Source of the DNA: an uncultured Syntrophaceae bacterium
Lineage (GTDB): Bacteria > Desulfobacterota > Syntrophia > Syntrophales > UBA2185
Assembly: GCA_964541605.1 (NCBI GenBank)
Contig: CAZIQY010000005.1
Coordinates: 1,220-65,219, forward strand
DNA length: 64,000 nucleotides
Direction of reading: 5' to 3'
The translations under genes and the position numbers were made by a program. This document shows, in pieces, positions 10,564-22,436 of the stretch. Positions within the stretch are counted from its first letter, which is position 1. Each line of letters starts with the position of its first letter. Under the pieces are notes generated by a model. The model was given only the letters and a program-made list of their open reading frames with translations. It had not been told where the DNA came from and did not search any database.

Positions 10564-10788
10564 ATGCTCACGGCAAAAGTTTTATCCAAGGGGCAGGTGG
10601 TCATTCCCAAGGAAGCCCGCGATAAAATCGGACTTGTCACAGGCGATCGTGTAGAGGTAAAAGTCACGGATGAAGGACTGTTGATTCTTCCCCTGAAGAA
10701 AGGGATCACAGACGACTATGCCGGTGTTGTCAGGGGCAGACTGTCTCTGGATGAACTGGAGCGGCTGTATGCTGAACAGCCTGAATGA
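10564..10788 (+). CDS. AbrB/SpoVT (MazE-like) family antitoxin
   Basis: LSKGQVVIPKEARDKIGLVTGDRVEV is the swapped-hairpin AbrB motif. It is 74 aa and overlaps the following PIN gene. Confidence 0.85.
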   Translation: MLTAKVLSKGQVVIPKEARDKIGLVTGDRVEVKVTDEGLLILPLKKGITDDYAGVVRGRLSLDELERLYAEQPE

Positions 10789-11278
10789 TTTCGACAGTAC
10801 CGAAGAAATCTTTGTCGATACAAATATTTTTCTGCACCATGCTTTTGCCGCCAATCAAAATTCCATCGCTTTTCTGAAAAGGGCGGAAACGCGCTCCCTG
10901 AGACTTTACACCTCCACGCTGGTTTTGGAAGAAATGATTTGCAAACTGATGATGCAGGCGTCATCGAATTTTTTGGATCGCGTCACGACGGATCATATCA
11001 AACAGTTTCTCCAGGACGAGGGGAACAGACAGAAAATCATGGAGCCTGTGGGAAAATATCTGGAATACATACGGACGCTACAGTCCATCTGCCTGCAGGT
11101 TCTCGATTTCTCGGAGAAGGATATGCGGGACGCCGTTGGGATGATCTCCCTTTATGGTCTGATGCCGGCTGAAGCAGTCCATATCGCGATCATGTCCCGC
11201 AGGAAAATCAGGCATCTGGCGACCGGCGACCGGGATTTTACCGTCGTTGAAGGCATCACCGTCTGGTCGCCGGGGTGA
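10769..11278 (+). CDS. vapC: PIN-domain ribonuclease toxin (VapC-like)
   Basis: IFVDTNIFLHH (first acidic residue), LVLEE and ATGDRDF are the conserved PIN acidic positions. The ATG at 10769 overlaps the antitoxin end by 20 nt. Confidence 0.8.
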   Translation: MLNSLNDFDSTEEIFVDTNIFLHHAFAANQNSIAFLKRAETRSLRLYTSTLVLEEMICKLMMQASSNFLDRVTTDHIKQFLQDEGNRQKIMEPVGKYLEYIRTLQSICLQVLDFSEKDMRDAVGMISLYGLMPAEAVHIAIMSRRKIRHLATGDRDFTVVEGITVWSPG

Positions 11279-11357
11279 TCCGACAGGGATTGACATTCGG
11301 GCGATCAAACCGGTATCCATACGCTGGCGGTACGGATTTGGCCATAAGAGGATTGCA

Positions 11358-14300
11358 ATGCCTGTTCTCAAACGTAAGCAGACCGTACTAAAACTCTTGG
11401 AGCAACTGCGGGGGCTCGATACCCTGAAGGAACTGTGCTGGACGGAGCTGAATTACGAGCGCGAAAACAAGCCGCTCAGCATGCGCAGCTGGCCGGACTC
11501 TGCCAGAAACGCGCTGCTCGACGATCCCATCCTGTTTGCGAGCGGCGGCGAAGATCATGCGTTTCATGTGGTGTATTGCCGCCTGGCATCCGATAGCCTG
11601 CAGAGAAATCTTGAGCGGCCAATCGTCAGTCAGTTGATCCGTGAGCACCCTTACGGCCTGTTTGTATTTTCCGACACAGCGCAATCCGCCTGGCATTTCC
11701 TGAACATCAAGTATGACGAAAAGGCGGAGAAGCGGCGCCTTTTCCGACGGATTACCGTGCGCGCCGACGGCGGTTTGCGCACAGCCGCCGAGCGGCTGCA
11801 GATGCTGGATCTTGCATCGTTCGGGAAAGAGCTGTTCGGCATTCCCGCCCTGGAGATTCAAAAACGCCACGATGACGCCTTCGACGTCGAATCGGTTACC
11901 AAGGCGTTTTACAAGGAACTCGCCAACTGGTACTTCTGGGCGCTGAAGCACGTTCATTTCCCCAAGGACGCGCCAAAGGAGGCTGACGGGCACGACCACA
12001 TCGGTGTGATTCGCATGATCACACGGTTGATCTTCTGCTGGTTCGTAAAGGAAAAAGGACTGATTCCCGAAACGCTGTTCAATCAGCGCCGCCTGAATGA
12101 ACTGTTAGATGGATTCGCACCGGACAATAACGCTGGGAGCGGCTCCGTCTTCTATAAGGCAATCCTGCAGAATCTTTTCTTTGCCACTCTGAACACCGAG
12201 ATGGACAAGCGCGGCTGGGCGCGGGATGAGCAGAACTTCATGGCGCACAGTCTTTACCGTTATCGCGATCTGTTCAAGAAGCCCGATGAGGCGCTGGCAC
12301 GGTTTAAGAACATTCCCTTCCTCAACGGCGGCTTGTTCGAGTGTCTGGACAAGGATCTGGGCGAAAGCGCCAGGCCGCGTTACGTGCGCATTGACGGCTT
12401 TTCCAGACGGCCGGACAGCCAACCGGTTGTCCCGGATTTCCTGTTCTTCGGATCTGAGCGCGAAGAAGACCTCAGCGCGGACTACGGCGACAAAAAGTTC
12501 AGGAAAGTCCGGGTGCGCGGGCTGATCGACACCCTTCAACGATACCGCTTCACGATTGAGGAAAACACGCCCATCGAGCAGGAAGTCGCCCTCGATCCGG
12601 AGTTGTCCGGCAAGGTGTTCGAGAACCTGCTTGCCGCCTACAACCCCGAAACCGGTGCCACCGCCCGCAAACAGACCGGCTCCTTTTACACCCCGCGCGA
12701 GATCGTGGATTACATGGTGGATGAGGCGTTGATCGCATTTCTGAAAGGAAGTTTTTCCACCGAGAACGCAGAGGCCGCGGAGAAGAGACTCCGGCGGCTG
12801 GTGTCGTGGGAGGAGAACGGCCACGATTTCGACAACCGGGAAACCGAAACGCTGATCACCGCGATTGACGGACTGAAGGCGCTGGACCCGGCAGTAGGCT
12901 CCGGCGCGTTTCCGATGGGCATTCTGCACAAGCTCGTGTTCATCCTGGGAAAACTCGATCCGCGCAACGAGCAGTGGGAACAACGGCAGATCCGGCGTGT
13001 GCGCGACGCCGTGGCCACGGCGGAGAAGATAGAAGACGCCGCCATCCGCGAGCGGACGGTCAGGGAACTGGAACAGCAAATCGTCGGCATCGAAGAGGCG
13101 TTTGAGCGCAACGAGCTGGATTACGGGCGCAAGCTCTACCTGATCGAGAACTGCCTCTACGGCGTGGATATTCAGTCCATCGCCGTCCAGATCGCCAAGA
13201 TGCGGTTCTTCATCTCGCTGATCGTTGACCAGCGGGCGGACCCGGACGCAGCAAACCTCGGTGTGCGCCCGCTGCCCAACCTGGAAACCAAATTTGTCGC
13301 CGCGAACACGCTGATCGGTATTGATCGCCCCGGTCAACAAATATTGCGGTATGACGACATTGCCGCCAAAGAGACGGAATTACGCAAAGTGCGGGAAAAA
13401 CACTTTAATGCGAGGACTCCTGCCAGCAAAGCCATGTACCGCGAACGAGACAAGAAACTCCGTTCTGAAATAGCAGCATTGCTCAAGAAAGATGGCTGGG
13501 GCGGTGAAGTCGCGAAAAAGCTTGCTGACTGGGATCCCTACGACCAGAACGCCTCCGCCTCTTTCTTCGATCCCGAGTGGATGTTTGGCGTGATGAAGGG
13601 GTTCGACATAACTATTGGAAATCCGCCCTACGTTCGTGCAGACGAACAATCCAACTGGAATCGCCGCCAGCGTGAACAAATCCTTGCCGGTGGAAACTAC
13701 GAGACGCTTTGGGAAAAGTGGGATCTCTTCGTACCTTTCATCGAAAAGGGCTATAAACTGCTCAGTCCCGGCGGCGTTACCACGCTCATCGTTTCCGATG
13801 CCTTCTGCCACGCCAAATACGCGCAGAAGCCGCAGAACTGGTTTCTCCAGCACGCCCGCATTCTGCGCCTCGACTTTTGCAGTGGCCTGCAAATTTTCGA
13901 TGCCGCTGTCCACAACCTCATTTACTTTTTTCAGAAGGCAGACGGTGCACGCAACGTTCCTAAACGCCGAGTTCACCTTGAGGAATTTGGTAACGTCAGC
14001 CTCCTGCCTTCTGATGAGCAATCAAAACTTACCTACCGAGCGTTCTTCCCGGAGGACCGAGAAGCAAGAATGGTTAGCGTCCCTGCAAAATCACTTGGAG
14101 AGATTTGCTACATTAGCGTTGGGATGGTCGTTCACGCAGACGAAAAAGTAGCGCAAGGCGCATTCGAGCTTGAGGATTTAGTTTCCGACCGAAGGGATGC
14201 CACGCATCCGTGCCGCTTTGTGGAAGGTAAGCACCTCGAAAAGTGGCTGCCATCGACGAACAAGTGGCTTGAATGGGGCACAGACCGTGCACCAAGCTTA

Positions 14301-14855
14301 TTCAGGCGACCAACGTTTCCCGAACTCTATTCTGTGACAGAGAAGATATTCACCCACCGGACAGCAGGTGAGGGACTACGCAGTTGCTATGATGAGGATC
14401 AGACGCTGTGCAACCACACGATCATGGTCTGTCTACCATGGCACGGACTGAAAGGAGTTCGCAATGCATCAATCAAGAAGTCGGCGCGTTACAAGGATGA
14501 ACGCACGCCACGCCCGGATTTACCCAAGCGGGAGGAACTGGAAGCCACCAGCCGCCGCTTTGTCGTGAAATATCTGCTCGGCGTGATGAACTCGACCATG
14601 GCGCGCGATTTCCTCCGTGCCAACCGCCGCAGCAACACTGACCTCTACCCGGATGATTGGAAAAAACTCCCCATCCCCGACGTTGATTCCTCCGCCCAGG
14701 AACCTATCATATCTTTAGTTGACCGCATCCTCGATGTCAAAAAGGCCGACCTATCTGCGGACACCTCGGCGATAGAGAAGGAGATTGACCGGATGGTATA
14801 TGAGCTTTACGGTCTGACGGAAGAAGAGATTGCGATTATCGAAGGGAGAGAATAA
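11358..14855 (+). CDS. Large gamma-class N6-adenine DNA methyltransferase (Eco57I / PglX / DrmMI-like architecture)
   Basis: It has motif X (TGSFYTPREIVDYMVDE), motif I (LDPAVGSGAFPMGIL) and motif IV (IGNPPYVRADE), followed by a long C-terminal TRD-like region. The start at 11358 (MPVLKRKQ) is preferred over the 11247 extension. Confidence 0.9.
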   Translation: MPVLKRKQTVLKLLEQLRGLDTLKELCWTELNYERENKPLSMRSWPDSARNALLDDPILFASGGEDHAFHVVYCRLASDSLQRNLERPIVSQLIREHPYGLFVFSDTAQSAWHFLNIKYDEKAEKRRLFRRITVRADGGLRTAAERLQMLDLASFGKELFGIPALEIQKRHDDAFDVESVTKAFYKELANWYFWALKHVHFPKDAPKEADGHDHIGVIRMITRLIFCWFVKEKGLIPETLFNQRRLNELLDGFAPDNNAGSGSVFYKAILQNLFFATLNTEMDKRGWARDEQNFMAHSLYRYRDLFKKPDEALARFKNIPFLNGGLFECLDKDLGESARPRYVRIDGFSRRPDSQPVVPDFLFFGSEREEDLSADYGDKKFRKVRVRGLIDTLQRYRFTIEENTPIEQEVALDPELSGKVFENLLAAYNPETGATARKQTGSFYTPREIVDYMVDEALIAFLKGSFSTENAEAAEKRLRRLVSWEENGHDFDNRETETLITAIDGLKALDPAVGSGAFPMGILHKLVFILGKLDPRNEQWEQRQIRRVRDAVATAEKIEDAAIRERTVRELEQQIVGIEEAFERNELDYGRKLYLIENCLYGVDIQSIAVQIAKMRFFISLIVDQRADPDAANLGVRPLPNLETKFVAANTLIGIDRPGQQILRYDDIAAKETELRKVREKHFNARTPASKAMYRERDKKLRSEIAALLKKDGWGGEVAKKLADWDPYDQNASASFFDPEWMFGVMKGFDITIGNPPYVRADEQSNWNRRQREQILAGGNYETLWEKWDLFVPFIEKGYKLLSPGGVTTLIVSDAFCHAKYAQKPQNWFLQHARILRLDFCSGLQIFDAAVHNLIYFFQKADGARNVPKRRVHLEEFGNVSLLPSDEQSKLTYRAFFPEDREARMVSVPAKSLGEICYISVGMVVHADEKVAQGAFELEDLVSDRRDATHPCRFVEGKHLEKWLPSTNKWLEWGTDRAPSLFRRPTFPELYSVTEKIFTHRTAGEGLRSCYDEDQTLCNHTIMVCLPWHGLKGVRNASIKKSARYKDERTPRPDLPKREELEATSRRFVVKYLLGVMNSTMARDFLRANRRSNTDLYPDDWKKLPIPDVDSSAQEPIISLVDRILDVKKADLSADTSAIEKEIDRMVYELYGLTEEEIAIIEGRE

Positions 14856-14956
14856 AATTTTGCAAATGGCTCATCCGGTTCTTGCATACTTGTCCCGGGT
14901 GTCTTGCTCCTGCTATCTGTTTGATATAACCCACATGGAAATGCAGGTGTAAAAAA

Positions 14957-15964
14957 ATGGAAATTACGAAATCTCAGCTTATAAAGGAACCAAAATACTG
15001 GGGTCGCCATATCGTCATACTTGGGGCTGGGGCAAGTGTCGCATCGTTTCCTCACGGTGACGCTAATGGAAAAAGACTGCCGACGATGGATAACTTAATT
15101 GAGATGCTTGGTCTCGAATCGGCATTAGAACGGGGAGGGGTTAAGAATAGCCGTCGCAACTTTGAAGATCTTTACAGTGAGTTGTACGAGAATGATCCTG
15201 GATCACCATTTCTCAAAGAAATTGAGGAGATCATATATACTTATTTTGACAGTCTAAAACTCCCAGAATTACCAACCGTGTATGACCATTTATTGATGTC
15301 CCTTAGGCCCAAGGATATTGTTGCAACTTTTAACTGGGATCCATTCCTCTTTGATGCGTGGAATCGAAATAAGGATAAAGTTCCAGTTCCGGAGATTATT
15401 CACCTTCACGGCAACGTCCGCTTAGCGTATTGCCCAGAGCACCCTGTCTATGGTGAACACGGCATGTATTGTCCAGAATGTGATAGAGAGCTTATCCCCT
15501 CTCGGCTACTCTACCCTGTCGCAATGAAGAACTATGTCAACGACCCTTTTATCAAAACAGAATGGGAAGTTTTAAAGAAAGGTCTGCGTCAGGCAAGGAC
15601 CATAACAATTTTTGGCTATGGAGCACCGACTACGGATAAAGAAGCAGTTGATATTATGAATAGTGCATGGGACAAGGACAATCGATTAATCGAAAGAACG
15701 GAGGTCATTGATATAAAAGACAAAGAAGTCCTGTGGACGCAGTGGGAACCTTTTATAATAAGAACTTACCTTGATTGCCCTGAGAACTTTTATCAATCAC
15801 GTTTAGCAGACTATCCGAGAAGAACTTGTGAAGCGTTATTAGCTCAAACATTTTATGGCCAATGGGTTGAGAATAACCCCTTGCCATCGGATGCTAATTT
15901 TGATGAACTATTCCTTTGGCTAAAGCCATTAGTTGAGGCTGAGCATGTATTGGATGCTGTCTGA
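14957..15964 (+). CDS. Short SIR2-like (SIR2_2 family) protein with an inserted CxxH...CxxC zinc knuckle
   Basis: IVILGAGASVASFP (Rossmann start), VATFNWDPF (equivalent to the TTNYD motif, catalytic Asn), IIHLHGNV (catalytic His), CPEHPVYGEHGMYCPEC, and TIFGYGAPTTDKEAV. The gene is visibly AT-richer than its neighbours. Confidence 0.8.
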   Translation: MEITKSQLIKEPKYWGRHIVILGAGASVASFPHGDANGKRLPTMDNLIEMLGLESALERGGVKNSRRNFEDLYSELYENDPGSPFLKEIEEIIYTYFDSLKLPELPTVYDHLLMSLRPKDIVATFNWDPFLFDAWNRNKDKVPVPEIIHLHGNVRLAYCPEHPVYGEHGMYCPECDRELIPSRLLYPVAMKNYVNDPFIKTEWEVLKKGLRQARTITIFGYGAPTTDKEAVDIMNSAWDKDNRLIERTEVIDIKDKEVLWTQWEPFIIRTYLDCPENFYQSRLADYPRRTCEALLAQTFYGQWVENNPLPSDANFDELFLWLKPLVEAEHVLDAV

Positions 15965-16082
15965 GAATTTATAGAGGCTTTTAGTTCACAACTAAAGGGC
16001 GTCCAGCACGTCCGTTATTGAACTGGCCCCCGTCAAGTGAGTGGAGAAAGTCTTTTATCAGGAGAAGGAGAATCCCATTTTG

Positions 16083-16805
16083 ATGATACCAATTCAAGAC
16101 ACAACCAGTATTTTCAACATTTACTGTGACGAGAGCTGCCACCTGGAGCATGATCACCAGCCGGTGATGCTTTTCGGTGCCGTGTGGTGCCTTCAGGAAG
16201 AAGTTGCTCGATTCACCGAAGCTATTCGGAAGCTAAAGGAGAAACATCATGCAAGGGGCGAGTTGAAATGGTCGAAGGTTTCCGCCTCGCGGGAATCGTT
16301 CTTCCTGGCCATGATCGATCTTTTCTTTTCAAGTCCTGGTCTCAATTTCCGATGTCTTATCGTCAACGACAAGGCGAAGTTGGATCATGCCTATTACAAT
16401 CGCGGAAGCCACGATTCCTTTTACTACAAAATGTACTATTACCTGCTCCGCAACATTATTTCCGATATGAATCGGTATGACATCTATCTGGATATCAAGG
16501 ATACCAGAAGTCAGTTGAAAATTGATTTCCTCCACGAGGTGTTGTGCAACAGCTTGAATGATTTTGACCACAGGGTAATCCGCAGAATCCAGCATGTTCG
16601 ATCTAAGGAGGTGGAACTGCTTCAACTGGCCGATTTTTTGATGGGGGCAATTGCATATAAAAACAGAAATCTTATTGAAAACAAAACAAAAATGGTGGTT
16701 ATCGATAGGATCTGCCGGTTATCCGGGAGGAGCCTGCAAACCAGCACTCCGCCGTGGGAAGAGAAATTCAATCTCTTTATTTTCACGCCGAGGGAGACAT
16801 GCTGA
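16083..16805 (+). CDS. DUF3800 family protein
   Basis: IFNIYCDESCHLEHD ... GELKWSKVS ... LQLADFLMGAI is the characteristic DUF3800 motif order. The track ORF starts with GTG at 16041. The ATG at 16083 lies downstream of AAGGAG. Confidence 0.8.
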   Translation: MIPIQDTTSIFNIYCDESCHLEHDHQPVMLFGAVWCLQEEVARFTEAIRKLKEKHHARGELKWSKVSASRESFFLAMIDLFFSSPGLNFRCLIVNDKAKLDHAYYNRGSHDSFYYKMYYYLLRNIISDMNRYDIYLDIKDTRSQLKIDFLHEVLCNSLNDFDHRVIRRIQHVRSKEVELLQLADFLMGAIAYKNRNLIENKTKMVVIDRICRLSGRSLQTSTPPWEEKFNLFIFTPRETC

Positions 16806-17293
16806 TGGCAGATTTACCGGATTTTTTGCCTCCAATTATTGATTTAGGGGGAACATGGGAGGAAATCCTATATCGACTGTATTCGGTTTTCCGCCATGAT
16901 TTTAAAGAAAGCTCTGTTAGACACAATGGTATGAGGGTTATTTTCGACGGCAGGATCATGCCGGACGGTCAGGGAAAGGAAGAGGGTTTCTGGCATGTCG
17001 TTTCAGGGAAGGATACGGAATGCAAAGAAAGGTTGATCGATTATCGCCGGGCTGAGCGCCTGCCTTGGGCAAGACCCATGATGGAAAGCTCGGCAAGAAA
17101 TGAAATCAAGGTCTTCGATTACGATCATGGCACTAAGGATGTCGGCGTGAGACGTTATGTCTGGTTGGCCGATTATGATTATGTACTTATTCTCCAGAAG
17201 AAGAAAAGGGCCATGTTTTGGGTGACTGCTTATTATATTGATTCGAATCGGGGGCGAAGGGATCTGATGCGGAGGTATGAGCAAAGGGCCTAA
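16805..17293 (+). CDS. Hypothetical protein (about 163 aa), translationally coupled to DUF3800
   Basis: Its ATG overlaps the DUF3800 stop (TGATG) and has a GAGGGAG RBS. I recognise no family. The track ORF starts at 16754. Confidence 0.6.
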   Translation: MADLPDFLPPIIDLGGTWEEILYRLYSVFRHDFKESSVRHNGMRVIFDGRIMPDGQGKEEGFWHVVSGKDTECKERLIDYRRAERLPWARPMMESSARNEIKVFDYDHGTKDVGVRRYVWLADYDYVLILQKKKRAMFWVTAYYIDSNRGRRDLMRRYEQRA

Positions 17294-17353
17294 AAAACAG
17301 CGACCGCCTTTCCAAGCGGCCCCCGAGCTCCTGCCACCTCCATTGGTGGATGA

Positions 17354-17375
17354 GTTGGTTTACATGTAAACCAAC
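17354..17375. repeat. Perfect 22-bp palindrome gttggtttaca|tgtaaaccaac in the non-coding gap of the island
   Basis: Read directly from the sequence. It lies 61 nt after the stop of the 16805-17293 gene. Confidence 0.7.
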
Positions 17376-17658
17376 CCTTGCCGTTTGTCAAGGACATTAT
17401 TTTTCAGATCATGAAAGCATACTTGATAATGTTCCGCTCGATTGCGGACGGGATTCGCCGTTGCGACAAGAAGGTTCAGATTGCGCTTTGCAAAGAGGTG
17501 TCGCAGGTTTGGAAAGCCGTTGGTTTGGAAGGAAAAGGACTGTTTTGCAACTGCATCGGTTGACGGATGATGGGATTGATGCGCGTATGCCATACTCTAT
17601 AGAAATATCTTGTATTTATTGGCAAATTATTCAATAATTCTGCTCAAGGACAATCATC

Positions 17659-18039
17659 ATGGTTGATATCGATAAACAGATTTCCTATTGGAAGGAAAAC
17701 GCCGACGAAGATTGGGAAGTTGCTCAGCAACTCCTTGAAAGCGGTCGAATCCGCCACGGTTTGTTTTTCGCTCACCTGGCACTGGAAAAGATGCTCAAGG
17801 CGCTTGTTTGCAAAAATACCGGTGATCTGGCACCTCGAATCCACAACCTGAACCGCCTGAGCGGGTTGGCTGGTGTTGTGGCAAATTCAGAGCAGTTGGA
17901 CATTCTGGCGGAAATGAATGCATTCCATATTGAAGGACGCTACCCCGAAACGTTGACGAAGCCGCCAACGATAGAGGAAGCCGTCCGGTATATGAAGCGG
18001 GCAGAGGAGGTGCTTCGATGGTTAACGAGTCTGTCGTAA
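17659..18039 (+). CDS. HEPN domain protein (toxin-type partner of the following nucleotidyltransferase)
   Basis: It is 126 aa and helical. The pattern WEVAQQLLESGRIRHGLFFAHLALEKMLKAL ... IHNLNRL ... HIEGRYPE is typical of small HEPN proteins paired with MNT. Confidence 0.8.
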   Translation: MVDIDKQISYWKENADEDWEVAQQLLESGRIRHGLFFAHLALEKMLKALVCKNTGDLAPRIHNLNRLSGLAGVVANSEQLDILAEMNAFHIEGRYPETLTKPPTIEEAVRYMKRAEEVLRWLTSLS

Positions 18040-18353
18040 AAGGCGTTAGAAATTACCTGCGGGCCTTGCAGGATCAGGGACTGATCGTCAACTTCGGGGT
18101 GGTTTTCGGATCGCAGGTTCAAGGCATGTCTGATATGTGGAGCGATATCGATTTACTGGTTATTTCTCCCCGCTTCGATGATCTGCGGGAACGTGGAGAT
18201 ATTGATCTTCTTTGGCGTGTTGCAGCTCGCACCGATAACCGCATCGAACCGATCCCCTGCGGCGAACGGCAATGGATTGAGGACGATTCCAGCGCCATCA
18301 TTGAAATCGCCCGGCGCGAGGGCCAGCCGATCGCCATATCGGAAGACACATAA
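18018..18353 (+). CDS. Minimal nucleotidyltransferase (MNT) domain protein
   Basis: VVFGSQVQGMSDMWSDIDLLVIS is the GS-x(n)-DxD polymerase-beta-type NTase motif. It overlaps the HEPN gene by 22 nt. Confidence 0.85.
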   Translation: MVNESVVKGVRNYLRALQDQGLIVNFGVVFGSQVQGMSDMWSDIDLLVISPRFDDLRERGDIDLLWRVAARTDNRIEPIPCGERQWIEDDSSAIIEIARREGQPIAISEDT

Positions 18354-18355
18354 TC

Positions 18356-18409
18356 ATGCCTGCCCACGACATCATCGACAACCGCCGGAAAAAACTGGTG
18401 GATCATATC
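18356..18409 (+). pseudogene. Diverged duplicate of the first 18 codons of the PLD-SNF2 helicase gene
   Basis: Bases 18356-18409 and 19101-19154 are identical at 48 of 54 positions (hand alignment). MPAHDIIDNRRKKLVDHI aligns with MPAHDIIDNRQEKLVDHI, and the upstream ataatc is also shared. Confidence 0.65.
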
Positions 18410-18440
18410 GACTGTCTTGCGGCGAAAAAGGAAATAAACA

Positions 18441-18469
18441 TTGACAGGAGCTGTACGAAAAGAGATACT
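18441..18469 (+). promoter_or_regulatory. Candidate promoter of the phd-relE module
   Basis: TTGACA (18441-18446), a 17-nt spacer, then GATACT (18464-18469), 28 nt upstream of the RBS GAAGGAGG and the ATG at 18497. Confidence 0.5.
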
Positions 18470-18496
18470 TCCAAAAGTACAGATGAAGGAGGACGT

Positions 18497-18772
18497 ATGC
18501 CGAAAAGCCTGTCCATCATTGAAGCAAGAAAAAAACTGACGAATATTCCGGAACTTTTTGAGCAGGAGGCGGATCTGGACGTCGTCGCCATAACCAGGCG
18601 GGGAAAGCCGGTCATGGCCATTATGCCCTGGGAGCTTTACGAAGCCCTTGAGGAAACCCTGGAGATTTTGGGGGATGAGGCACTGATGATGCAACTTAGA
18701 GAAAGCATAGAGGAGCTGAAAGCAGGACAGCTTATCCCGTGGGAAGAAACCGGCGCCGGGGCGGGGCGGTGA
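18497..18772 (+). CDS. Phd/YefM family antitoxin
   Basis: MPKSLSIIEARKKLTNIPELFEQEADLDVVAITRRGKPVMAIMPWELYEALEETLEILGD is the Phd/YefM pattern. A strong RBS precedes the ATG. The track ORF (from 18356) adds the helicase-derived fragment. Confidence 0.85.
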   Translation: MPKSLSIIEARKKLTNIPELFEQEADLDVVAITRRGKPVMAIMPWELYEALEETLEILGDEALMMQLRESIEELKAGQLIPWEETGAGAGR

Positions 18773-19086
18773 TGTGGCCTGTTTTCATCACGCCGGCGGC
18801 GCAACGGATGCTTCAGGCAATTCCGGACGGGCGGATCAGGGGAAAGATCGGGGATGTCATTGACCGTCTTCGGCAGGACCCGGAAAAACAGGGGAAAGCT
18901 CTGTTGGGTGAGCTTGCGGGATACCGGAGTATTCGGGCCGTTGGGCAGCGGTATCGCATTGTCTACAAGGTCGAGAAAACGAGGGTGATCGTCATTGTCG
19001 TGGCTGTCGGCCTTCGTAAAGAAGGAGCAAAAAGAGGCATCTACGCCCTCGCCAGGAAACTTCTCCGCCTTCGGCTGACGGAGTGA
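18772..19086 (+). CDS. RelE/ParE family toxin
   Basis: GYRSIRAVGQRYRIVYKVEKTRVIVIVVAVGLRKE is the typical RelE/ParE C-terminal core. Its start overlaps the antitoxin stop (TGATG). Confidence 0.85.
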   Translation: MWPVFITPAAQRMLQAIPDGRIRGKIGDVIDRLRQDPEKQGKALLGELAGYRSIRAVGQRYRIVYKVEKTRVIVIVVAVGLRKEGAKRGIYALARKLLRLRLTE

Positions 19087-19100
19087 GGGAGGGATAATCT

Positions 19101-22100
19101 ATGCCTGCCCATGACATTATTGACAACCGTCAGGAAAAACTGGTGGATCATATCAACCGGATTCTTGACTCCAGCGACGCGGCGCGATTTGCCGTGGGTT
19201 ATTTCTTCCTTTCAGGACTGACGGCCATTTCGGAAAAACTCTCCCGCATCAAGGAATTACGGCTGCTCATCGGCAATACGACCAACCGGGAAACCCTGGA
19301 ACAGTTGGCCGAAGGGTATCACCGTCTGGAGATGGTTGCCGACGCTGCCGAGGCGGAGCGGTATCCGAAACGGAGCGACATCAGACAGATGTCGGTGGAG
19401 ACAACGTACAGCATCCGGACGGGCATGGAACTGATGGATCAGACGGACGAAGGGGAATCGCTGGTCAAATCCCTGGTGCGCATGATCGAAGAAAAACGCC
19501 TCAAGGTTCGGGTTTACATGCGGGGTCGTCTCCATGCGAAGGCGTATATCTTCGATTACGGCGCCGTTTACGACCGCAGCGGCAAACCTGTAAATCGTCA
19601 CGAAGAAGGAATCGCCGTGGTCGGCTCTTCCAACCTGACCCTCTCCGGCGTCACCCACAACACGGAACTCAATGTGATCGTCCAGGGAAACGACAACCAT
19701 GCAGAGCTTGTCCGATGGTTTGAAGACCTCTGGAAAGAGGCGCAGGAGTTCGACGAGACCCTGATGCAGGAGATGAAGGCATCCTGGGCGATAGCGCCGG
19801 TACGGCCCTATGACATCTACATGAAAACCCTCTATGCCCTGGTCAAGGACCGCATTGAAGGAGGAGACGATCAGGATGTTCTCTGGGATGATGAGATCAC
19901 GCGAAGACTGGCGGATTTCCAGAAGGTTGCCGTCAAGCAGGCTGTGCAGATCATCCGGGACTATGGCGGGGCTTTTGTATCCGACGTGGTGGGTCTTGGA
20001 AAATCCTATATCGGCGCCGCCATTGTCAAGCACTTCGAACGCGTGGAACACGCCCGACCTTTAATTATCTGTCCGGCAACGCTGGTCGAGATGTGGGAAC
20101 GCTATAACGAGGTCTATCAGCTCAATGCCCGGGTTCTGTCCATGGGGTATCTCCGGGAAAGGGACGACCAGCCGGTACAATTTCTCAAGGAAGAGGTAAT
20201 CTACCGGGATCGAAACTTCCTGCTTGTCGATGAAAGTCATAATTTCCGCTATGCCGACACCCAGCGTTACAAGATGGTGGAGGCATTCCTGGAGACAGGA
20301 AAGAAATGCTGCTTCATTACCGCCACCCCCCGGAACAAGAGCGCCTGGGATGTTTACTACCAGATGAAGCTCTTCCATCAGGATGACAAGACGGAGCTGC
20401 CCATAGATCCGCCCAATCTGAAAGAATATTTTCGCCTGATTGAAAAGAGAGAAAAAGACCTTCCCGACCTGTTGTCCAATCTTCTTATCCGCCGAACACG
20501 GAATCACATCCTTAAATGGTATGGATTTGACTCTGAAACCCATCGACAGATCGATCCTTCCCATTTCAGAGATTATCAAGACGGCCGACGCCGGGCTTAC
20601 GTCATGGTGGCGGGGAAGCACCAGTTCTTCCCCAAACGGGAGCTGGAAACGATTGAATACAGCATTGAAGAAACCTACCAGGGTCTCTATCACGAATTGC
20701 GCGGATATCTCGGCAAAGCCTCCCGGAAGGGACAGCCGGTCAAGCCGCCGCCCAACGAGCTCACCTATGCCCGATATGGCCTGTGGCATTATGTCGTCAA
20801 AGAGAAACAGAAAAAGGAGCCCTATGCCAGCCTCCACCGGGCCGGTTCCAACCTGCGCGGCCTGATTCGGGTTTTACTTTTCAAGCGCTTTGAATCGAGC
20901 GTTTATGCCTTCCAGGAAACGGTACGCCGTCTCTTGACTGTACATAAGCGATTCGTGGAAGCCCTTTCGCAAGGATTCGTACCCGCCGGGGAGGATGCCC
21001 AGGCCATCCTTTATGAACCGAATCAGGACGAAGAGCAGGACCTGATGGATGCCCTCCGTCAGGTCTCCGGCAAATACAATGTCGCCGATTTTGACCTGCC
21101 AAGACTGAAGGAACACATTGCTCACGATATCCGATTGCTGGAAAAGATGCTGAAACTAATCGATCCCATCACGCCTGATCAGGATGCCAAACTCCAGACG
21201 CTGATAAAAAAACTTAAGGAAAAGCCGCTGTTGGACGGTAAGCGGCTGATCTTTACCCAATACGCCGATACAGCACGATACATCTTTGAAAACCTTAATC
21301 CCGGGAGCGCGCGGCAGGATATTGACGTGATCTTCAGCGGAGACAAGAGCAAAGTCAGGGTTGTCGGGCGCTTCGCTCCCAAGGCAAACCCTGAATACCG
21401 CTTCACTGCTGGAGAGAAAGAATTGATGATGGTCGTTGCCACCGACGTCCTCGCCGAAGGTCTCAATCTTCAGGACTGCGACAAGATCATCAATTATGAT
21501 CTTCATTGGAATCCGGTCAGATTGATCCAGCGATTTGGTCGCATTGACCGGATCGGCTCGGAACACGATGTGGTCTATGGTTTCAATTTCATGCCTGAAA
21601 CCGGAATTGAGCGCAATCTCGGTCTCCGCGAGAAACTTCATCACCGCATTCAGGAGATTCATGATACGATCGGGGAAGACTCGGCTATCCTCGACCGATC
21701 TGAGCAACTGAACGAAGAGGCGATGTACGCCATTTATGAAAAGAAAGGCAGCCAGCTTTCGCTGTTCGAAGAAGAGGAGGAATTTCTGGATCTCAACGAG
21801 GCGGAAGAAATCATGAGGCAGTTGCGCCGCGACAATCCTACGGAATATGATCGAATTGCCGGCCTTCGGAACGGCATCCGTACGGTAAAACCTTCAGCAA
21901 CCAAGGGACTCTATGTCTTCTGCCAGGCGGGCAGGTACCAGCAGCTATTCCTTTTAAACGCAAGGCGGGAGATTACCTCCAGAGATATACCCCGCATCCT
22001 CGGCGTGATCAAATGCGATCCTGAACTGAAAGCGCTCGATATTCCGCCCGGTTATAACGCCGACGTGATGCGTGTCAAACGACAATTTGCAGAGACGGTC

Positions 22101-22436
22101 AAGCAACGACAGGCGGAACTGGAACACACGCTATCGTTGTCACAGGGACAGCGTTATGTCCTCCGTGAACTGAGAGTATTGTTTGGTCTTAGTAATGACG
22201 ATGAAATAAAGATCCAAATTAACATTCTTGAAAAAGCCTTTCGCGGTCCGATGACCACGGCGATCAACCGTGAACTAAACCACATCCGTCGCAATGGGAT
22301 GACAGGTGAACATCTTATGCGGGCATTGACGGAGCTCTATCATCAGCACAGCATGAGGGATTGGTCGGAGCGACGCAACCGGAGATCTGAAGATCAGATC
22401 ATACCGAAGATCGTCTGTAGCGAGGGACTGGCGTAA
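19101..22436 (+). CDS. PLD-family nuclease fused to an SNF2-family helicase (1111 aa)
   Basis: The N-terminal single HKD motif is RLHAKAYIFDY plus GSSNLTLSG. The SNF2 core comprises VVGLGKSYIG (I), LLVDESHNFR (II), ITATPRNKS (III), VATDVLAEGLNLQ (V) and QRFGRIDRIGS (VI). About 300 aa at the C-terminus are unassigned. Confidence 0.9.
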   Translation: MPAHDIIDNRQEKLVDHINRILDSSDAARFAVGYFFLSGLTAISEKLSRIKELRLLIGNTTNRETLEQLAEGYHRLEMVADAAEAERYPKRSDIRQMSVETTYSIRTGMELMDQTDEGESLVKSLVRMIEEKRLKVRVYMRGRLHAKAYIFDYGAVYDRSGKPVNRHEEGIAVVGSSNLTLSGVTHNTELNVIVQGNDNHAELVRWFEDLWKEAQEFDETLMQEMKASWAIAPVRPYDIYMKTLYALVKDRIEGGDDQDVLWDDEITRRLADFQKVAVKQAVQIIRDYGGAFVSDVVGLGKSYIGAAIVKHFERVEHARPLIICPATLVEMWERYNEVYQLNARVLSMGYLRERDDQPVQFLKEEVIYRDRNFLLVDESHNFRYADTQRYKMVEAFLETGKKCCFITATPRNKSAWDVYYQMKLFHQDDKTELPIDPPNLKEYFRLIEKREKDLPDLLSNLLIRRTRNHILKWYGFDSETHRQIDPSHFRDYQDGRRRAYVMVAGKHQFFPKRELETIEYSIEETYQGLYHELRGYLGKASRKGQPVKPPPNELTYARYGLWHYVVKEKQKKEPYASLHRAGSNLRGLIRVLLFKRFESSVYAFQETVRRLLTVHKRFVEALSQGFVPAGEDAQAILYEPNQDEEQDLMDALRQVSGKYNVADFDLPRLKEHIAHDIRLLEKMLKLIDPITPDQDAKLQTLIKKLKEKPLLDGKRLIFTQYADTARYIFENLNPGSARQDIDVIFSGDKSKVRVVGRFAPKANPEYRFTAGEKELMMVVATDVLAEGLNLQDCDKIINYDLHWNPVRLIQRFGRIDRIGSEHDVVYGFNFMPETGIERNLGLREKLHHRIQEIHDTIGEDSAILDRSEQLNEEAMYAIYEKKGSQLSLFEEEEEFLDLNEAEEIMRQLRRDNPTEYDRIAGLRNGIRTVKPSATKGLYVFCQAGRYQQLFLLNARREITSRDIPRILGVIKCDPELKALDIPPGYNADVMRVKRQFAETVKQRQAELEHTLSLSQGQRYVLRELRVLFGLSNDDEIKIQINILEKAFRGPMTTAINRELNHIRRNGMTGEHLMRALTELYHQHSMRDWSERRNRRSEDQIIPKIVCSEGLA

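What the first reader, a model, noticed from the sequence alone, without database searches (positions are those of the whole stretch)
14957..17293. Compact SIR2-like / DUF3800 / unknown-ORF trio as a candidate undescribed abortive-infection module
Three co-oriented genes sit inside the restriction pair. In 60-nt samples I counted about 40% G+C at the start of the SIR2 gene and about 60% in the MTase, so they are clearly AT-richer. (1) The first gene encodes a 335-aa stand-alone SIR2_2-type protein. The putative NADase residues are intact (TFNWD Asn, HLHG His). It also has a CxxH-x10-CxxC zinc knuckle directly after the catalytic His. That is the position of the Zn module in canonical sirtuins, and as far as I know defence SIR2 proteins (ThsA, DSR) lack a module there. 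(2) The second gene encodes a DUF3800 protein. (3) The third is an ORF of about 163 aa with no family I recognise, and its ATG overlaps the DUF3800 stop (TGATG). Known SIR2 defence systems pair SIR2 with SLOG, HerA, pAgo/APAZ, STAND or very large DSR scaffolds. I know of no described system that pairs a short SIR2 with DUF3800. DUF3800 plus its coupled partner may also be a two-gene unit independent of SIR2, since a gap of 77-119 nt separates them.
Basis: partly seen in the sequence, partly recalled or inferred. Interest (0 to 1): 0.72.

Follow-up and report, generated by a model that had tools for sequence, protein, structure and literature searches.

The report
Two defence cassettes plus hidden sRNA
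The three genes are not one system: a stand-alone sirtuin-like gene sits beside an already catalogued but untested two-gene defence candidate (PDC-M04), and that candidate also carries a conserved small RNA gene absent from Rfam, with relatives inside phage tRNA gene arrays.

Summary
The genes are real and AT-richer than their flanks. They lie between an Eco57I-family methyltransferase and a PLD+SNF2 helicase. The trio is not a conserved unit. None of 80 genomes carrying gene A has the DUF3800 gene (B) or its partner (C) within 10 kb. None of 80 loci carrying C has gene A.

B+C match PADLOC's candidate system PDC-M04 (5e-92, 1e-44). This candidate was predicted by "guilt-by-embedding" and I found no test of it. 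B sits directly upstream of C in 73/80 loci, usually inside restriction-modification operons.

Gene A matches no Pfam, NCBIfam or PADLOC model. Its predicted fold is SIR2 (Foldseek probability 1.0). N126, D128 and H151 are invariant, and it has a zinc-ribbon-like insert where canonical sirtuins have theirs. It is a solo gene in at least 452 species and is sometimes embedded in DISARM or RM systems.

A new feature is a ~65-nt small RNA gene on the minus strand (17291-17357), convergent with C. It has its own promoter and terminator and is present in at least 73/80 loci. Covariation is strong (11/15 pairs) and Rfam has no match. Homologues without B or C occur on phage contigs, ten of them inside tRNA arrays.

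Most likely the stretch holds independent embedded cassettes, with PDC-M04 being a nuclease, a partner protein and an RNA.

The parts
14957..15964 (+). Gene A: a 335-aa stand-alone SIR2-fold protein. It has GAGAS, FNWD (N126, D128) and HLHG (H151) motifs and a CxxH-x9-CxxC insert (C159, H162, C172, C175). It is an independent cassette.
   Evidence: The ORF is listed. No profile hit was found. The AF2 model has pLDDT 87.9. All top Foldseek hits are SIR2 proteins. Residue conservation is shown. The motif register against a canonical sirtuin is shown.
16083..16805 (+). Gene B: a DUF3800 (RNase H-like) protein matching PDC-M04A. The likely start is the ATG at 16083, after the RBS at 16060-16072; the ORF opens at the GTG at 16041. 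The DES motif (D16, E17, S18) and QxxD motif (Q181, D184) are conserved.
   Evidence: Pfam E-value 1.7e-17. PADLOC PDC-M04A E-value 5.2e-92. Conserved residues in 53 homologues are shown. The RNase H-like fold is taken from the literature (PMC10910872, PMC7736814).
16799..17293 (+). Gene C: a 164-aa protein (162 aa from the ATG at 16805) matching PDC-M04B. Its start overlaps the stop of B (TGATG). Its alpha/beta fold has no match among solved structures.
   Evidence: PADLOC E-value 1.4e-44. B is adjacent in 73/80 loci. The AF2 model has pLDDT 93. No PDB fold match was found, and one uncharacterised viral match was found.
17291..17357 (-). A conserved small RNA gene of about 65 nt, convergent with gene C. 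It has a 5' hairpin: P0 pairs 17352-17354 with 17328-17330, and P1 pairs 17345-17349 with 17334-17338. A linker and an intrinsic terminator follow.
   Evidence: The element was found by blastn. Alignment A6 holds 62 distinct sequences. In one search, 97.6% of cells pair, 11/15 pairs show double changes, and 0/500 shuffles reach the observed values. G.U versus A.C counts (68 vs 5) favour the minus strand. The covariance model scores 71.3 bits, E-value 1.4e-22, in the window. It hits at least 73/80 C loci and gives no real hit in 1.2 Mb of control loci. Rfam has no match.
17302..17321 (-). Terminator hairpin of the small RNA. It is followed by GCUGUUUUUU, whose U-run (17292-17297) abuts the TAA stop of gene C.
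   Evidence: Terminator scan. The single-sequence fold gives -28.6 kcal/mol, z = -2.6. Covariation of helix 3 is shown.
17386..17391 (-). -35 box (TTGACA) of the small RNA promoter. The window's -10 (TACATG) is weak.
   Evidence: TTGAC[AT] lies at a fixed 36-38 nt upstream of the hairpin in 42/62 sequences. A GATAAT, TATAAT or TCATAA hexamer lies 17 nt downstream of it.
17354..17375 (.). A perfect 22-nt palindrome (GTTGGTTTACATGTAAACCAAC) covering the small RNA's -10 and start region. It may be an operator; this was not tested.
   Evidence: Self-hit; sequence.
11247..14855 (+). Eco57I-family (type IIG-like) N6-adenine methyltransferase. It is the upstream half of the host RM-like pair.
   Evidence: Pfam Eco57I E-value 3.9e-28. 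PADLOC REase_MTase_IIG E-value 1.3e-55. It lies next to the helicase homologue in L095, L096, L159, L161 and L163.
19101..22436 (+). PLD (HKD) nuclease + SNF2 helicase. It is the downstream half of the host pair.
   Evidence: Pfam PLDc_2, SNF2 and Helicase_C hits. PADLOC 'HKD+Snf2' E-value 2.3e-82.
17659..18353 (+). HEPN + nucleotidyltransferase (MNT) pair. This is a separate embedded cassette.
   Evidence: Pfam HEPN E-value 6e-21 and NTP_transf_2 E-value 3e-6.
18356..19086 (+). Phd/YefM + ParE toxin-antitoxin cassette. It is flanked by a 57-nt direct repeat of the helicase gene's 5' end (18356-18412 and 19101-19157, 88% identical).
   Evidence: Pfam hits; repeat D1.

Best explanation
The stretch 14.9-19.1 kb is a mosaic of independent cargo cassettes embedded between the two genes of an RM-like system (an Eco57I-type methyltransferase and a PLD-SNF2 helicase). 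The three genes of the finding belong to two separate units.

(1) Gene A is a solo enzyme of the sirtuin fold with an intact NAD-binding and catalytic set (GxGxS, N-x-D, His) and a zinc-ribbon-like insert. It most likely consumes NAD+ (inferred), either as an NADase or as a protein ADP-ribosyltransferase/deacylase. The retained zinc module, which canonical sirtuins use for protein substrates, tilts slightly towards a protein-directed activity.

(2) B and C are the PADLOC candidate PDC-M04, and the unit has a third part: a ~65-nt structured small RNA transcribed convergently and ending at C's stop codon.

Proposed mechanism (inferred, about 35%): the RNase H-like DUF3800 nuclease, made in fixed ratio with C through translational coupling, is held inactive or given specificity by the small RNA. 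Infection upsets this balance, for example through transcription shut-off, RNA decay or inhibition of the surrounding RM system. The nuclease is then released to cut nucleic acid, possibly tRNA-related RNA, and the infection aborts. Phages that carry orphan copies of the RNA, often in tRNA arrays, would be supplying an antidote or decoy.

Shown here: gene content, separability of the cassettes, conservation, RNA structure and strand, and the phage homologues. Inferred: every biochemical activity.
For: Separability:
- 0/80 gene-A loci carry B or C, and 0/80 C loci carry gene A.
- L011 (methyltransferase 89%, A 90%, helicase 72% identical) lacks B-C.
- L091 (methyltransferase 83%, B 91%, C 85% identical) lacks A.
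- Gene A has no conserved neighbour. Its upstream neighbours hit 104 different Pfam families.

PDC-M04:
- PADLOC hits.
- B lies immediately upstream of C in 73/80 loci, with gaps of -7 to +34 nt.
- Neighbours are dominated by RM components: N6_Mtase 9, Eco57I 9, ResIII 8, Methylase_S 5 and PLDc_2 5 among 84 ORFs. This matches the way PDCs were defined (10.1101/2024.01.29.577857).

Small RNA.

Phage copies:
- 13 viral contigs carry B+C+RNA.
- At least 17 carry the RNA alone.
- In 10 of those the RNA sits in a same-strand tRNA array.
- L171 has a capsid gene.

Gene A:
- SIR2 fold and invariant residues.
- Embedded in class 1 DISARM (L051) and adjacent to type IIG and type III RM genes (L065, L061).
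Against: - No expression data exist. The small RNA is predicted only, and the window's own -10 box is weak.
- No activity of A, B or C has been measured, and I found no paper that tests PDC-M04.
- Gene A also occurs among metabolic genes (L005-L010, L019, L020, L031). A defence role for it is therefore unproven.
- A different short SIR2-like gene precedes B-C in L095 and L101. This could mean the SIR2 slot is not entirely random.
- The phage RNA hits were pre-selected with a 16-nt pattern. Their E-values do not account for the size of the collection scanned.
Confidence: 0.7

Rival explanations
1. The trio is one functional system. PDC-M04 (B, C and the RNA) would be a sensor/regulator core, and the gene just upstream would be a swappable effector: a SIR2-type NAD+ consumer here.
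For: - The three genes are co-oriented, share a low G+C content, and have no predicted terminator between A and B.
- A second lineage (L095, L101) has a very different short SIR2_2-like gene in exactly the same slot: methyltransferase, SIR2-like gene, about 100 nt, then B-C.
- Other loci hold different genes in that slot: a 345-aa protein with an Rx4H motif in L091 and a 249-aa protein in L096.
Against: - 0/80 and 0/80 co-occurrence.
- B-C follows the methyltransferase or hsdS gene directly, with no intervening gene, in L163, L104, L109, L111 and L165. The core therefore stands alone.
- Gene A is solo in 80 genomes.
- The two SIR2-like genes are barely related (E about 1e-7 over the C-terminal part only). 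They were not inherited together with B-C, which is 73-77% identical.
Confidence: 0.1
2. The conserved element after gene C is only a cis-antisense regulator or terminator of the B-C messenger, like a type I toxin-antitoxin antisense RNA that overlaps the 3' end. It would not be a protein-bound cofactor or antitoxin.
For: - The transcription geometry is convergent, and the RNA's 3' end abuts or overlaps the end of C. The stop codon lies inside the hairpin in L095, L097, L099, L105 and L121.
- Read-through of B-C would create a perfect duplex of about 65 bp.
Against: - Antisense pairing does not require sequence conservation. Yet the 5' hairpin domain is more conserved than the adjacent gene (median 79% vs 65% nucleotide identity).
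- Its helices covary, so a folded RNA is under selection.
- Orphan homologues exist in phages with no B-C messenger to pair with.
Confidence: 0.25
3. Gene A is not a defence gene. It is an accessory sirtuin-like regulatory or metabolic enzyme that merely landed in a variable region.
For: - Close homologues (73-75% identical) lie among acetyltransferase, flavin reductase, isochorismatase and oxidoreductase genes in Smithella/Syntrophaceae contigs.
- Neighbours in 26 random loci include histidine kinases and MFS transporters.
- The zinc module is typical of protein-deacylating sirtuins (PMC12700824).
Against: - Distribution is patchy: 452 of about 185,000 species across many phyla, including an archaeon, at 42-90% identity.
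- DNA methyltransferases are among the commonest neighbour families.
- The gene is embedded inside class 1 DISARM and next to type IIG and type III RM genes in distant taxa, and in this RM-like pair in two genomes.
Confidence: 0.3
4. PDC-M04 is an addiction (toxin-antitoxin-like) module that stabilises the RM island or a mobile element. It would not be an anti-phage system.
For: - The architecture (nuclease, small partner and RNA) resembles toxin-antitoxin logic.
- It sits beside HEPN-MNT and Phd-ParE cassettes.
- It is found on (pro)phage-like contigs.
- No phage assay was found in the literature.
Against: - It is consistently embedded in RM operons. Embedding predicted seven functional defences experimentally in the study that defined the PDCs.
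- Phage-borne orphan RNA copies in tRNA arrays are easier to explain as counter-defence.
Confidence: 0.2

Closest known systems
PADLOC PDC-M04 (phage defence candidate from 'guilt-by-embedding'; Payne et al. 2024, bioRxiv 10.1101/2024.01.29.577857)
   Same: B and C match the M04A and M04B models (305 and 150 bits). They are adjacent, on the same strand, and embedded in an RM-like operon.
   Different: The catalogue entry consists of two proteins. Here a conserved small RNA gene is a near-constant third part. The host system is an Eco57I-type methyltransferase plus a PLD-SNF2 helicase, not BREX, DISARM or type I RM. I found no experimental test of PDC-M04.
DUF3800-associated RNA motifs DUF3800-I to -XI (Weinberg et al. 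2017, PMC5737381)
   Same: It is a structured RNA next to a DUF3800 gene, ending in a Rho-independent terminator, and it can lie on the opposite strand.
   Different: Rfam 15 holds at least DUF3800-I and -IX. No Rfam family matched at gathering score in the related loci, or at E<=1-10 in the window. I could not check the original motif files. If it is not among them, this is a twelfth, unrelated structure.
Type III toxin-antitoxin systems (ToxIN) and the phage-borne pseudo-ToxI escape (from my own knowledge)
   Same: A nuclease gene comes with a dedicated small structured RNA. Phages carry copies of the RNA without the protein genes. One locus has three tandem RNA copies (L108).
   Different: The RNA is single-copy and convergent, not a tandem repeat array upstream on the same strand. 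The nuclease has an RNase H-like fold rather than being a ToxN/AbiQ-type endoRNase. A second protein (C) is always present. Inhibition has not been shown.
PrrC anticodon nuclease embedded in type I RM (cited in Payne et al.)
   Same: It is a stand-alone effector cassette habitually nested inside RM operons. The phage tRNA arrays suggest a link to tRNA.
   Different: There is no sequence or fold relation, and no evidence that the RM proteins regulate B-C.
Defence sirtuins (ThsA, DSR2, SIR2-HerA, Avs5) and canonical sirtuins (CobB, Sir2Af)
   Same: Gene A shares the SIR2 fold with both groups (Foldseek E-values 5e-8 to 1e-6) and the GxGxS, N-x-D and His motifs. Like canonical sirtuins it has a Cys-rich insert right after the catalytic His. 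Like SIR2_2 proteins it has a G-Y-G/S motif.
   Different: It matches no sirtuin profile. It has no sensor or partner domain (SLOG, HerA, STAND, pAgo). ThsA, DSR2 and SIR2_2 proteins lack the zinc module. Canonical sirtuins use four Cys, whereas here there are three Cys plus a variable H/D/C position.
DUF3800 in retron type VII and in Cas12a2/Cas12a3 and Cas13-CASK loci
   Same: The same domain recurs as an accessory of RNA-containing immune systems.
   Different: Here there is no reverse transcriptase, Cas protein, TPR fusion or kinase. The RNA partner is a short, independent small RNA.

Membership tests
Pfam SIR2_2 (PF13289) / SIR2 (PF02146) | Match to the family profile at or above the gathering score | tested here: not met
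   Gene A has no Pfam hit even at E<=10. A profile of 26 homologues finds no sirtuin among PDB sequences.
Sirtuin (SIR2) fold superfamily | Rossmann-type large subdomain plus small subdomain. GxGxS NAD loop, N-x-D and catalytic His in canonical order. | tested here: met
   The AF2 model has pLDDT 87.9. The top 50 Foldseek hits are all SIR2 proteins, probability 1.0, TM 0.4-0.6. G23, G25, N126, D128, H151 and G152 are invariant in 196 sequences. hhalign places FNWD on TQNID and HLHG on ELHG, although the score is weak (E = 0.03).
Sirtuin (SIR2) fold superfamily | NAD+-dependent catalysis (NADase, deacylase or ADP-ribosyltransferase) | not testable with these tools
   An enzyme assay is needed.
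Canonical zinc-containing sirtuins | Four-ligand zinc ribbon inserted after the catalytic His | tested here: inconclusive
   C159xxH162-x9-C172xxC175 aligns with the first CxxC of a canonical sirtuin. The three Cys are 91-93% conserved, and the fourth ligand position varies among H, D, C and G.
Known SIR2 defence systems (Thoeris, DSR1/2, SIR2-HerA, SPARSA, Avs5) | Required partner or fused sensor (ThsB TIR, HerA, pAgo/APAZ, STAND, large C-terminal domain) | tested here: not met
   Gene A has no PADLOC hit at E<=10. It is 335 aa with no extra domain. Its neighbours are DUF3800/PDC-M04, HEPN-MNT and Phd-ParE.
Pfam DUF3800 (PF12686) | Profile match. N-terminal DE motif and C-terminal QxxD motif. 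| tested here: met
   64.9 bits against a cut-off of 21. D16 and E17 are at least 90% conserved, and Q181 and D184 are invariant in 53 homologues. The motif definition comes from PMC7736814.
PADLOC PDC-M04 | M04A and M04B proteins encoded adjacently on one strand | tested here: met
   E-values 5.2e-92 and 1.4e-44. The stop and start overlap. The pair is conserved in 73/80 loci.
PADLOC PDC-M04 | Anti-phage activity | not testable with these tools
   No paper in the library names PDC-M04. Other PDCs, but not M04, were tested in PMC12881386.
Rfam DUF3800-I, DUF3800-IX and the other Rfam 15 families | Covariance-model match | tested here: not met
   No match at E<=1 over 14000-19500. Only noise at E<=10 over 17250-17420. 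No match at gathering score in 11 related loci.
Type III toxin-antitoxin (ToxIN-like) | Tandem repeats of antitoxin RNA upstream of, and co-oriented with, an endoRNase toxin that processes them | tested here: not met
   The RNA is single-copy and convergent in the window and in nearly all loci. Only L108 has three tandem copies.
Independent bacterial small RNA gene | Own promoter, folded body with covariation, intrinsic terminator | tested here: met
   -35 and -10 boxes lie at fixed spacing in 42/62 sequences. 11/15 pairs covary, and 0/500 shuffles reach the observed values. A hairpin plus U-run was found. Transcription itself was not testable.

The most novel reading that the evidence does not exclude
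PDC-M04 would be a three-part ribonucleoprotein immune module. A ~65-nt small RNA would act as the obligatory inhibitor or specificity cofactor of an RNase H-like DUF3800 nuclease and its partner protein. Phages would fight it by carrying orphan copies of the same RNA, often inside their tRNA arrays. That would give the first function for the long-unexplained association between DUF3800 genes and non-coding RNAs. It would also point to a link between DUF3800 nucleases and tRNA-centred immunity.
Probability: 0.3. Interest if true: 0.8.

Novelty: new variant of a known kind. Interest (0 to 1): 0.6.

Why it matters
- **The proposed system.** The SIR2-DUF3800 system as proposed does not exist as a conserved unit, so it should not enter a catalogue.
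- **The small RNA.** A widely distributed but untested defence candidate (PDC-M04) turns out to have a conserved small RNA gene that protein-only catalogues miss. Weinberg et al. noted in 2017 that many unrelated RNAs accompany DUF3800 genes and could offer no hypothesis. A compact module of two proteins and one 65-nt RNA, with RNA-only copies in phage tRNA arrays, makes that question directly testable.
- **Gene A.** It defines an uncatalogued, widespread family of solo sirtuin-fold proteins that keep a zinc-ribbon-like insert. It is repeatedly embedded in DISARM and RM systems. That makes it a new single-gene defence candidate and a possible intermediate between SIR2_2-type NADases and canonical sirtuins.

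Tried and rejected
- **Sequence profiles for gene A.** Pfam, NCBIfam and PADLOC at E<=10 found nothing. PDB searches with phmmer and with a profile also found nothing. Only the fold search worked.
- **Conserved partner of gene A.** BLAST clustering of 1230 neighbour ORFs found none. The ~320-aa upstream neighbours are unrelated to one another. A Pfam scan of 72 upstream neighbours also found none.
- **Fused domains in longer gene-A relatives.** The extensions have no Pfam hit and are not homologous to one another.
- **Fold of C.** No significant PDB match; the weak RelE/ParE/HigB-like hits at E>0.1 were not used.
- **Conserved RNA in the A-B spacer.** None found.
- **tRNA or tmRNA at the element.** None found.
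- **Small peptide in the small RNA.** A 17-codon ORF exists in the window copy. Its ATG is missing in many lineages (for example L098, L120, L122, L126, L135 and L141-L157), and the helices covary, so this was rejected.
- **Plus-strand RNA reading.** Rejected on three grounds: G.U versus A.C counts, the U-run, and the promoter position.
- **Small RNA in annotated phage and plasmid collections.** blastn found no match.
- **L091's 345-aa gene as a hidden gene-A homologue.** It is not one.
- **Weinberg supplementary files.** They are not held in the library.


Full report
**1. What is in the sequence.** The three ORFs exist as described.
- Gene A is 14957-15964 (335 aa).
- Gene B is 16041-16805. 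A better start is the ATG at 16083, which follows the RBS AGGAGAAGGAGAA and gives 240 aa.
- Gene C is 16799/16805-17293 (164/162 aa). Its ATG overlaps B's TGA in the sequence TGATG.
- G+C is 0.40-0.46 across 14750-17250 and 0.52-0.61 in the flanking large genes.
- Upstream lies a 1202-aa Eco57I-family methyltransferase. Downstream, after HEPN-MNT and Phd-ParE cassettes, lies a 1111-aa PLD+SNF2 helicase (PADLOC 'HKD+Snf2', E-value 2e-82).
- Homologues of these two large genes are directly adjacent in several metagenome loci (L095, L096, L159, L161, L163). Calling them a pair is therefore reasonable.

**2. Gene A.**
- It matches no model in Pfam, NCBIfam or PADLOC, even at E<=10. It matches no solved structure by sequence, either alone or as a 26-sequence profile. 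'SIR2_2-type' is therefore not a profile-based assignment.
- An AlphaFold2 model built on the alignment is confident (pLDDT 87.9). All of its best PDB matches are sirtuins, both canonical (CobB, Sir2Af) and defence-type (SIR2-HerA, ThsA, DSR2, Avs5). Foldseek probability is 1.0 and E-values are 5e-8 to 1e-6.
- The order of secondary structure and motifs is that of a sirtuin: beta1-GAGAS, VATFNWD, IIHLHG, a beta-hairpin insert, FGYGAP.
- An hhalign comparison with a canonical sirtuin that happens to neighbour a gene-A homologue is statistically weak. It nevertheless puts FNWD on TQNID, HLHG on ELHG, and C159xxH162 on the first CxxC of the zinc module.
- In 196 relatives (32-91% identity), N126, H151 and G152 are invariant and D128 is present in 195. 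C159, C172 and C175 are 91-93% conserved. Position 162 is H, D or C in about 80%.
- The spacing is x9, not x10.
- Published structures state that ThsA, FAM118, 'other SIR2_2 proteins' and DSR2 lack the zinc module (PMC12700824, PMC10981675).

**3. Gene A is a solo gene.**
- The family is large: 1957 hits in the word-indexed search, 1395 clusters at 50% identity, almost all 330-350 aa.
- It occurs in at least 452 species across many phyla, including a methanogen.
- In 80 genome loci with 10-kb flanks, no B or C homologue was found by tblastn or by HMM.
- No neighbour family is shared by more than a few loci. The 72 immediate upstream neighbours hit 104 different Pfam families.
- Contexts are mixed. 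A 73%-identical homologue lies among metabolic genes. DNA methyltransferases are among the commonest neighbour families.
- In Cyanobium (L051) the gene sits inside a class 1 DISARM operon, between DrmD-DrmMI and DrmA-DrmB.
- In Sulfurimonadaceae (L065) it lies one gene downstream of a type IIG enzyme gene.
- In Geobacter (L061) it precedes a type III Mod-Res pair.
- By the 'guilt-by-embedding' criterion it qualifies as a defence candidate. It is not in PADLOC 2.0.

**4. B and C.**
- B is DUF3800 (Pfam E-value 1.7e-17) and matches PADLOC PDC-M04A (5e-92). C matches PDC-M04B (1.4e-44).
- The PDC systems come from Payne et al. [quoted passage not shown]
- I found no paper that names or tests PDC-M04. 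Other PDCs have been tested.
- In 80 metagenome loci found through C, B lies immediately upstream in 73 loci. That is 57 of the 61 loci with enough upstream sequence. Gaps are -7 to +34 nt. Gene A is present in none.
- Large neighbours in 26 non-redundant long loci are dominated by RM parts: N6_Mtase 9, Eco57I 9, ResIII 8, Methylase_S 5, PLDc_2 5, SNF2 5.
- B keeps the DE(S) and QxxD motifs. The literature assigns DUF3800 an RNase H-like fold (PMC10910872, PMC7736814).
- C is modelled confidently (pLDDT 93). It has no significant match in the PDB and one uncharacterised viral match.

**5. The parts separate in sister loci.**
- L011 has methyltransferase 89%, A 90% and helicase 72% identical to the window. 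It carries A followed by an SPL-like radical-SAM gene and an AAA_21/DUF4276 pair, but no B-C.
- L091 has methyltransferase 83%, B 91% and C 85% identical. In A's place it carries an unrelated 345-aa gene. B-C, a ParE-like/HTH pair and PDC-M05 follow.
- The slot between the two host genes is therefore a small, shuffled island of independent cassettes.
- The Phd-ParE cassette in the window is still flanked by a 57-nt direct repeat of the helicase gene's start.

**6.
- In L095 and L101 the gene directly upstream of B-C, after the methyltransferase, is a different short SIR2-like protein with motifs GAGAS, TFNYD, KLHGS and IGYSFPKTD. It lacks the Cys insert. It is related to gene A only at about E = 1e-7, over its C-terminal part.
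- B-C in these loci is 73-77% identical to the window's, so the two SIR2-like genes were not inherited with it.
- Elsewhere B-C follows the methyltransferase or hsdS gene directly (L163, L104, L109, L111, L165).
- I read this as two independent landings of a common kind of cargo. A swappable-effector arrangement cannot be excluded, and I give it about 10%.

**7. A conserved small RNA gene.**
- Comparing the DNA downstream of C across loci revealed a block that is better conserved than the gene itself (median 79% vs 65% nucleotide identity to the window).
- Read on the minus strand it is 5'-CUCAUC(C/U)ACC-loop-GGU(G/A)G-AA-GGAGCUCGGGG-[GC-rich hairpin]-GCUGUUUUUU.
- The alignment of 62 distinct sequences gives three helices in which 97.6% of cells pair. 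Slid controls give 34-61%. Eleven of 15 pairs show changes on both sides. There are 94 compensatory cells against 9.2 in shuffles, and 0/500 shuffles reach the observed values.
- Examples of compensatory change: P0 as CUC/GAG, UUC/GAA, UAC/GUA; P1 as CUACC/GGUAG, CCACC/GGUGG, CUUCC/GGAAG.
- Three observations place the RNA on the minus strand:
  - 68 G.U cells against 5 A.C cells.
  - The hairpin is followed by a U-run only on that strand.
  - A TTGAC(A/T) box lies 36-38 nt upstream of the hairpin in 42/62 sequences, with a GATAAT, TATAAT or TCATAA hexamer 17 nt after it.
- In the window the -35 is perfect (17386-17391), but the -10 (TACATG) is weak.
- A covariance model built from the alignment gives one strong hit in the 64-kb window (17286-17360, minus strand, 71.3 bits). 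It hits at least 73 of the 80 C loci. It finds nothing real in 1.2 Mb of gene-A loci (best 16.5 bits).
- Rfam 15, which includes DUF3800-I and DUF3800-IX, has no match.
- This fits the 2017 observation that eleven unrelated RNA motifs accompany DUF3800 genes, several with terminators and on either strand (PMC5737381). It adds a new structure to that list.

**8. Phage copies of the RNA.**
- A pattern scan of IMG/VR was followed by scoring with the model. It found 13 viral contigs with B, C and the convergent RNA.
- It also found at least 17 contigs with the RNA (30-51 bits) and no B or C, even at relaxed HMM thresholds.
- Thirty-two of the 79 pattern-selected loci score below about 20 bits. The pattern alone therefore does not produce the score.
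- Several hits carry compensatory variants or tandem copies.
- L171 encodes a major capsid protein homologue.
- In ten RNA-only contigs the RNA lies inside or beside a tRNA gene array on the same strand. L228 has up to 28 tRNAs, and L194 also has a GOLLD RNA.
- These E-values do not correct for the size of the scanned collection. The point needs a proper database-wide search.

**9. Mechanism.** What follows is inference.
- B and C are translationally coupled and always accompanied by the RNA. DUF3800 elsewhere accompanies RNA-based immune systems: retron type VII, the tRNA-cleaving Cas12a3, and the Cas13-CASK system that signals through tRNA fragments.
- The simplest model is a nuclease-partner complex that the small RNA inhibits or programmes. 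Infection or inhibition of the surrounding RM system would release it. Phages would supply their own copy of the RNA as an antidote. I put this at roughly 30-35%.
- A purely antisense role for the RNA gets about 25%. An addiction-module role for the cassette gets about 20%. These overlap partly.
- For gene A, NAD+ consumption is likely from the intact catalytic set. Whether it is a defence NADase or a protein-modifying sirtuin is open.

**10. Verdict.** The interpretation as a three-gene module is not supported. B-C is a known, untested candidate. Two things deserve follow-up: the third, RNA, component of PDC-M04 together with its phage homologues, and the uncatalogued family of zinc-ribbon-bearing solo sirtuin-fold proteins.

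Noticed in passing
window 17291-17357 (-), promoter to 17391: A conserved ~65-nt small RNA gene is convergent with gene C. It has strong covariation, its own promoter and terminator, and no Rfam match. It became part of the main explanation.
   Followed up: yes
L171, L187, L190, L193-L195, L201, L204, L205, L208, L209, L211, L213, L228, L230, L237, L238, L246, L250 (IMG/VR contigs): Orphan homologues of the small RNA occur on viral contigs without DUF3800 or C genes. In ten contigs the RNA lies inside or beside a same-strand tRNA array (28 tRNAs in L228; GOLLD RNA in L194). L171 has a capsid gene.
   Followed up: partly
L108 1056-1390 (-); also L199, L208, L210, L233: Several loci have two or three tandem copies of the small RNA, reminiscent of repeat-type RNA antitoxins.
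   Followed up: no
window 17354-17375: A perfect 22-nt palindrome (GTTGGTTTACATGTAAACCAAC) lies over the small RNA's -10 and start region. It is a possible operator or plus-strand hairpin.
   Followed up: no
window 18356-18412 and 19101-19157: A 57-nt direct repeat (88% identical) duplicates the first 19 codons of the helicase gene in front of the Phd-ParE cassette. It looks like an insertion or recombination scar, and it gives the Phd ORF a borrowed N-terminus.
   Followed up: partly
L095 6161-7167 and L101 1490-2044: A different short SIR2_2-like gene without the Cys insert lies directly upstream of B-C, after the methyltransferase. It is split by a frameshift in L095. This is a second lineage with a SIR2-like gene adjacent to PDC-M04.
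   Followed up: partly
L051 1737-17571 (Cyanobium MAG); similar layouts in L088 and L071: In L051 a gene-A homologue (44% identical) is embedded in a class 1 DISARM operon, between DrmD-DrmMI and DrmA-DrmB. L088 and L071 show similar gene layouts but were not annotated with PADLOC. In L061 the gene precedes a type III Mod-Res pair, and in L065 it lies one gene downstream of a type IIG enzyme gene.
   Followed up: partly
L091 3266-4303 and 5937-7636: In the sister locus, the slot of gene A holds an unrelated 345-aa protein ending in an Rx4H (HEPN-like) motif. The TA slots hold a ParE-like/HTH pair and PDC-M05A+B.
   Followed up: partly
L011 11282-14506: Next to the 90%-identical gene-A homologue lie an SPL-like radical-SAM gene and an AAA_21 (HEC-01A-like) + DUF4276 pair. 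SPL-like genes also appear three times among the neighbours of B-C.
   Followed up: no
window 10564-11278: A MazE/AbrB-type antitoxin and a PIN-domain toxin pair lies directly upstream of the methyltransferase. The Pfam labels come from the identical contig L001.
   Followed up: no
P0247 (C-terminal extension) and P0271 (N-terminal extension): Two longer gene-A relatives carry a homologous extension of about 130-160 aa (MPSNFRFLVICR...), on opposite ends. It is probably a recurrent neighbouring gene merged by gene calling.
   Followed up: no
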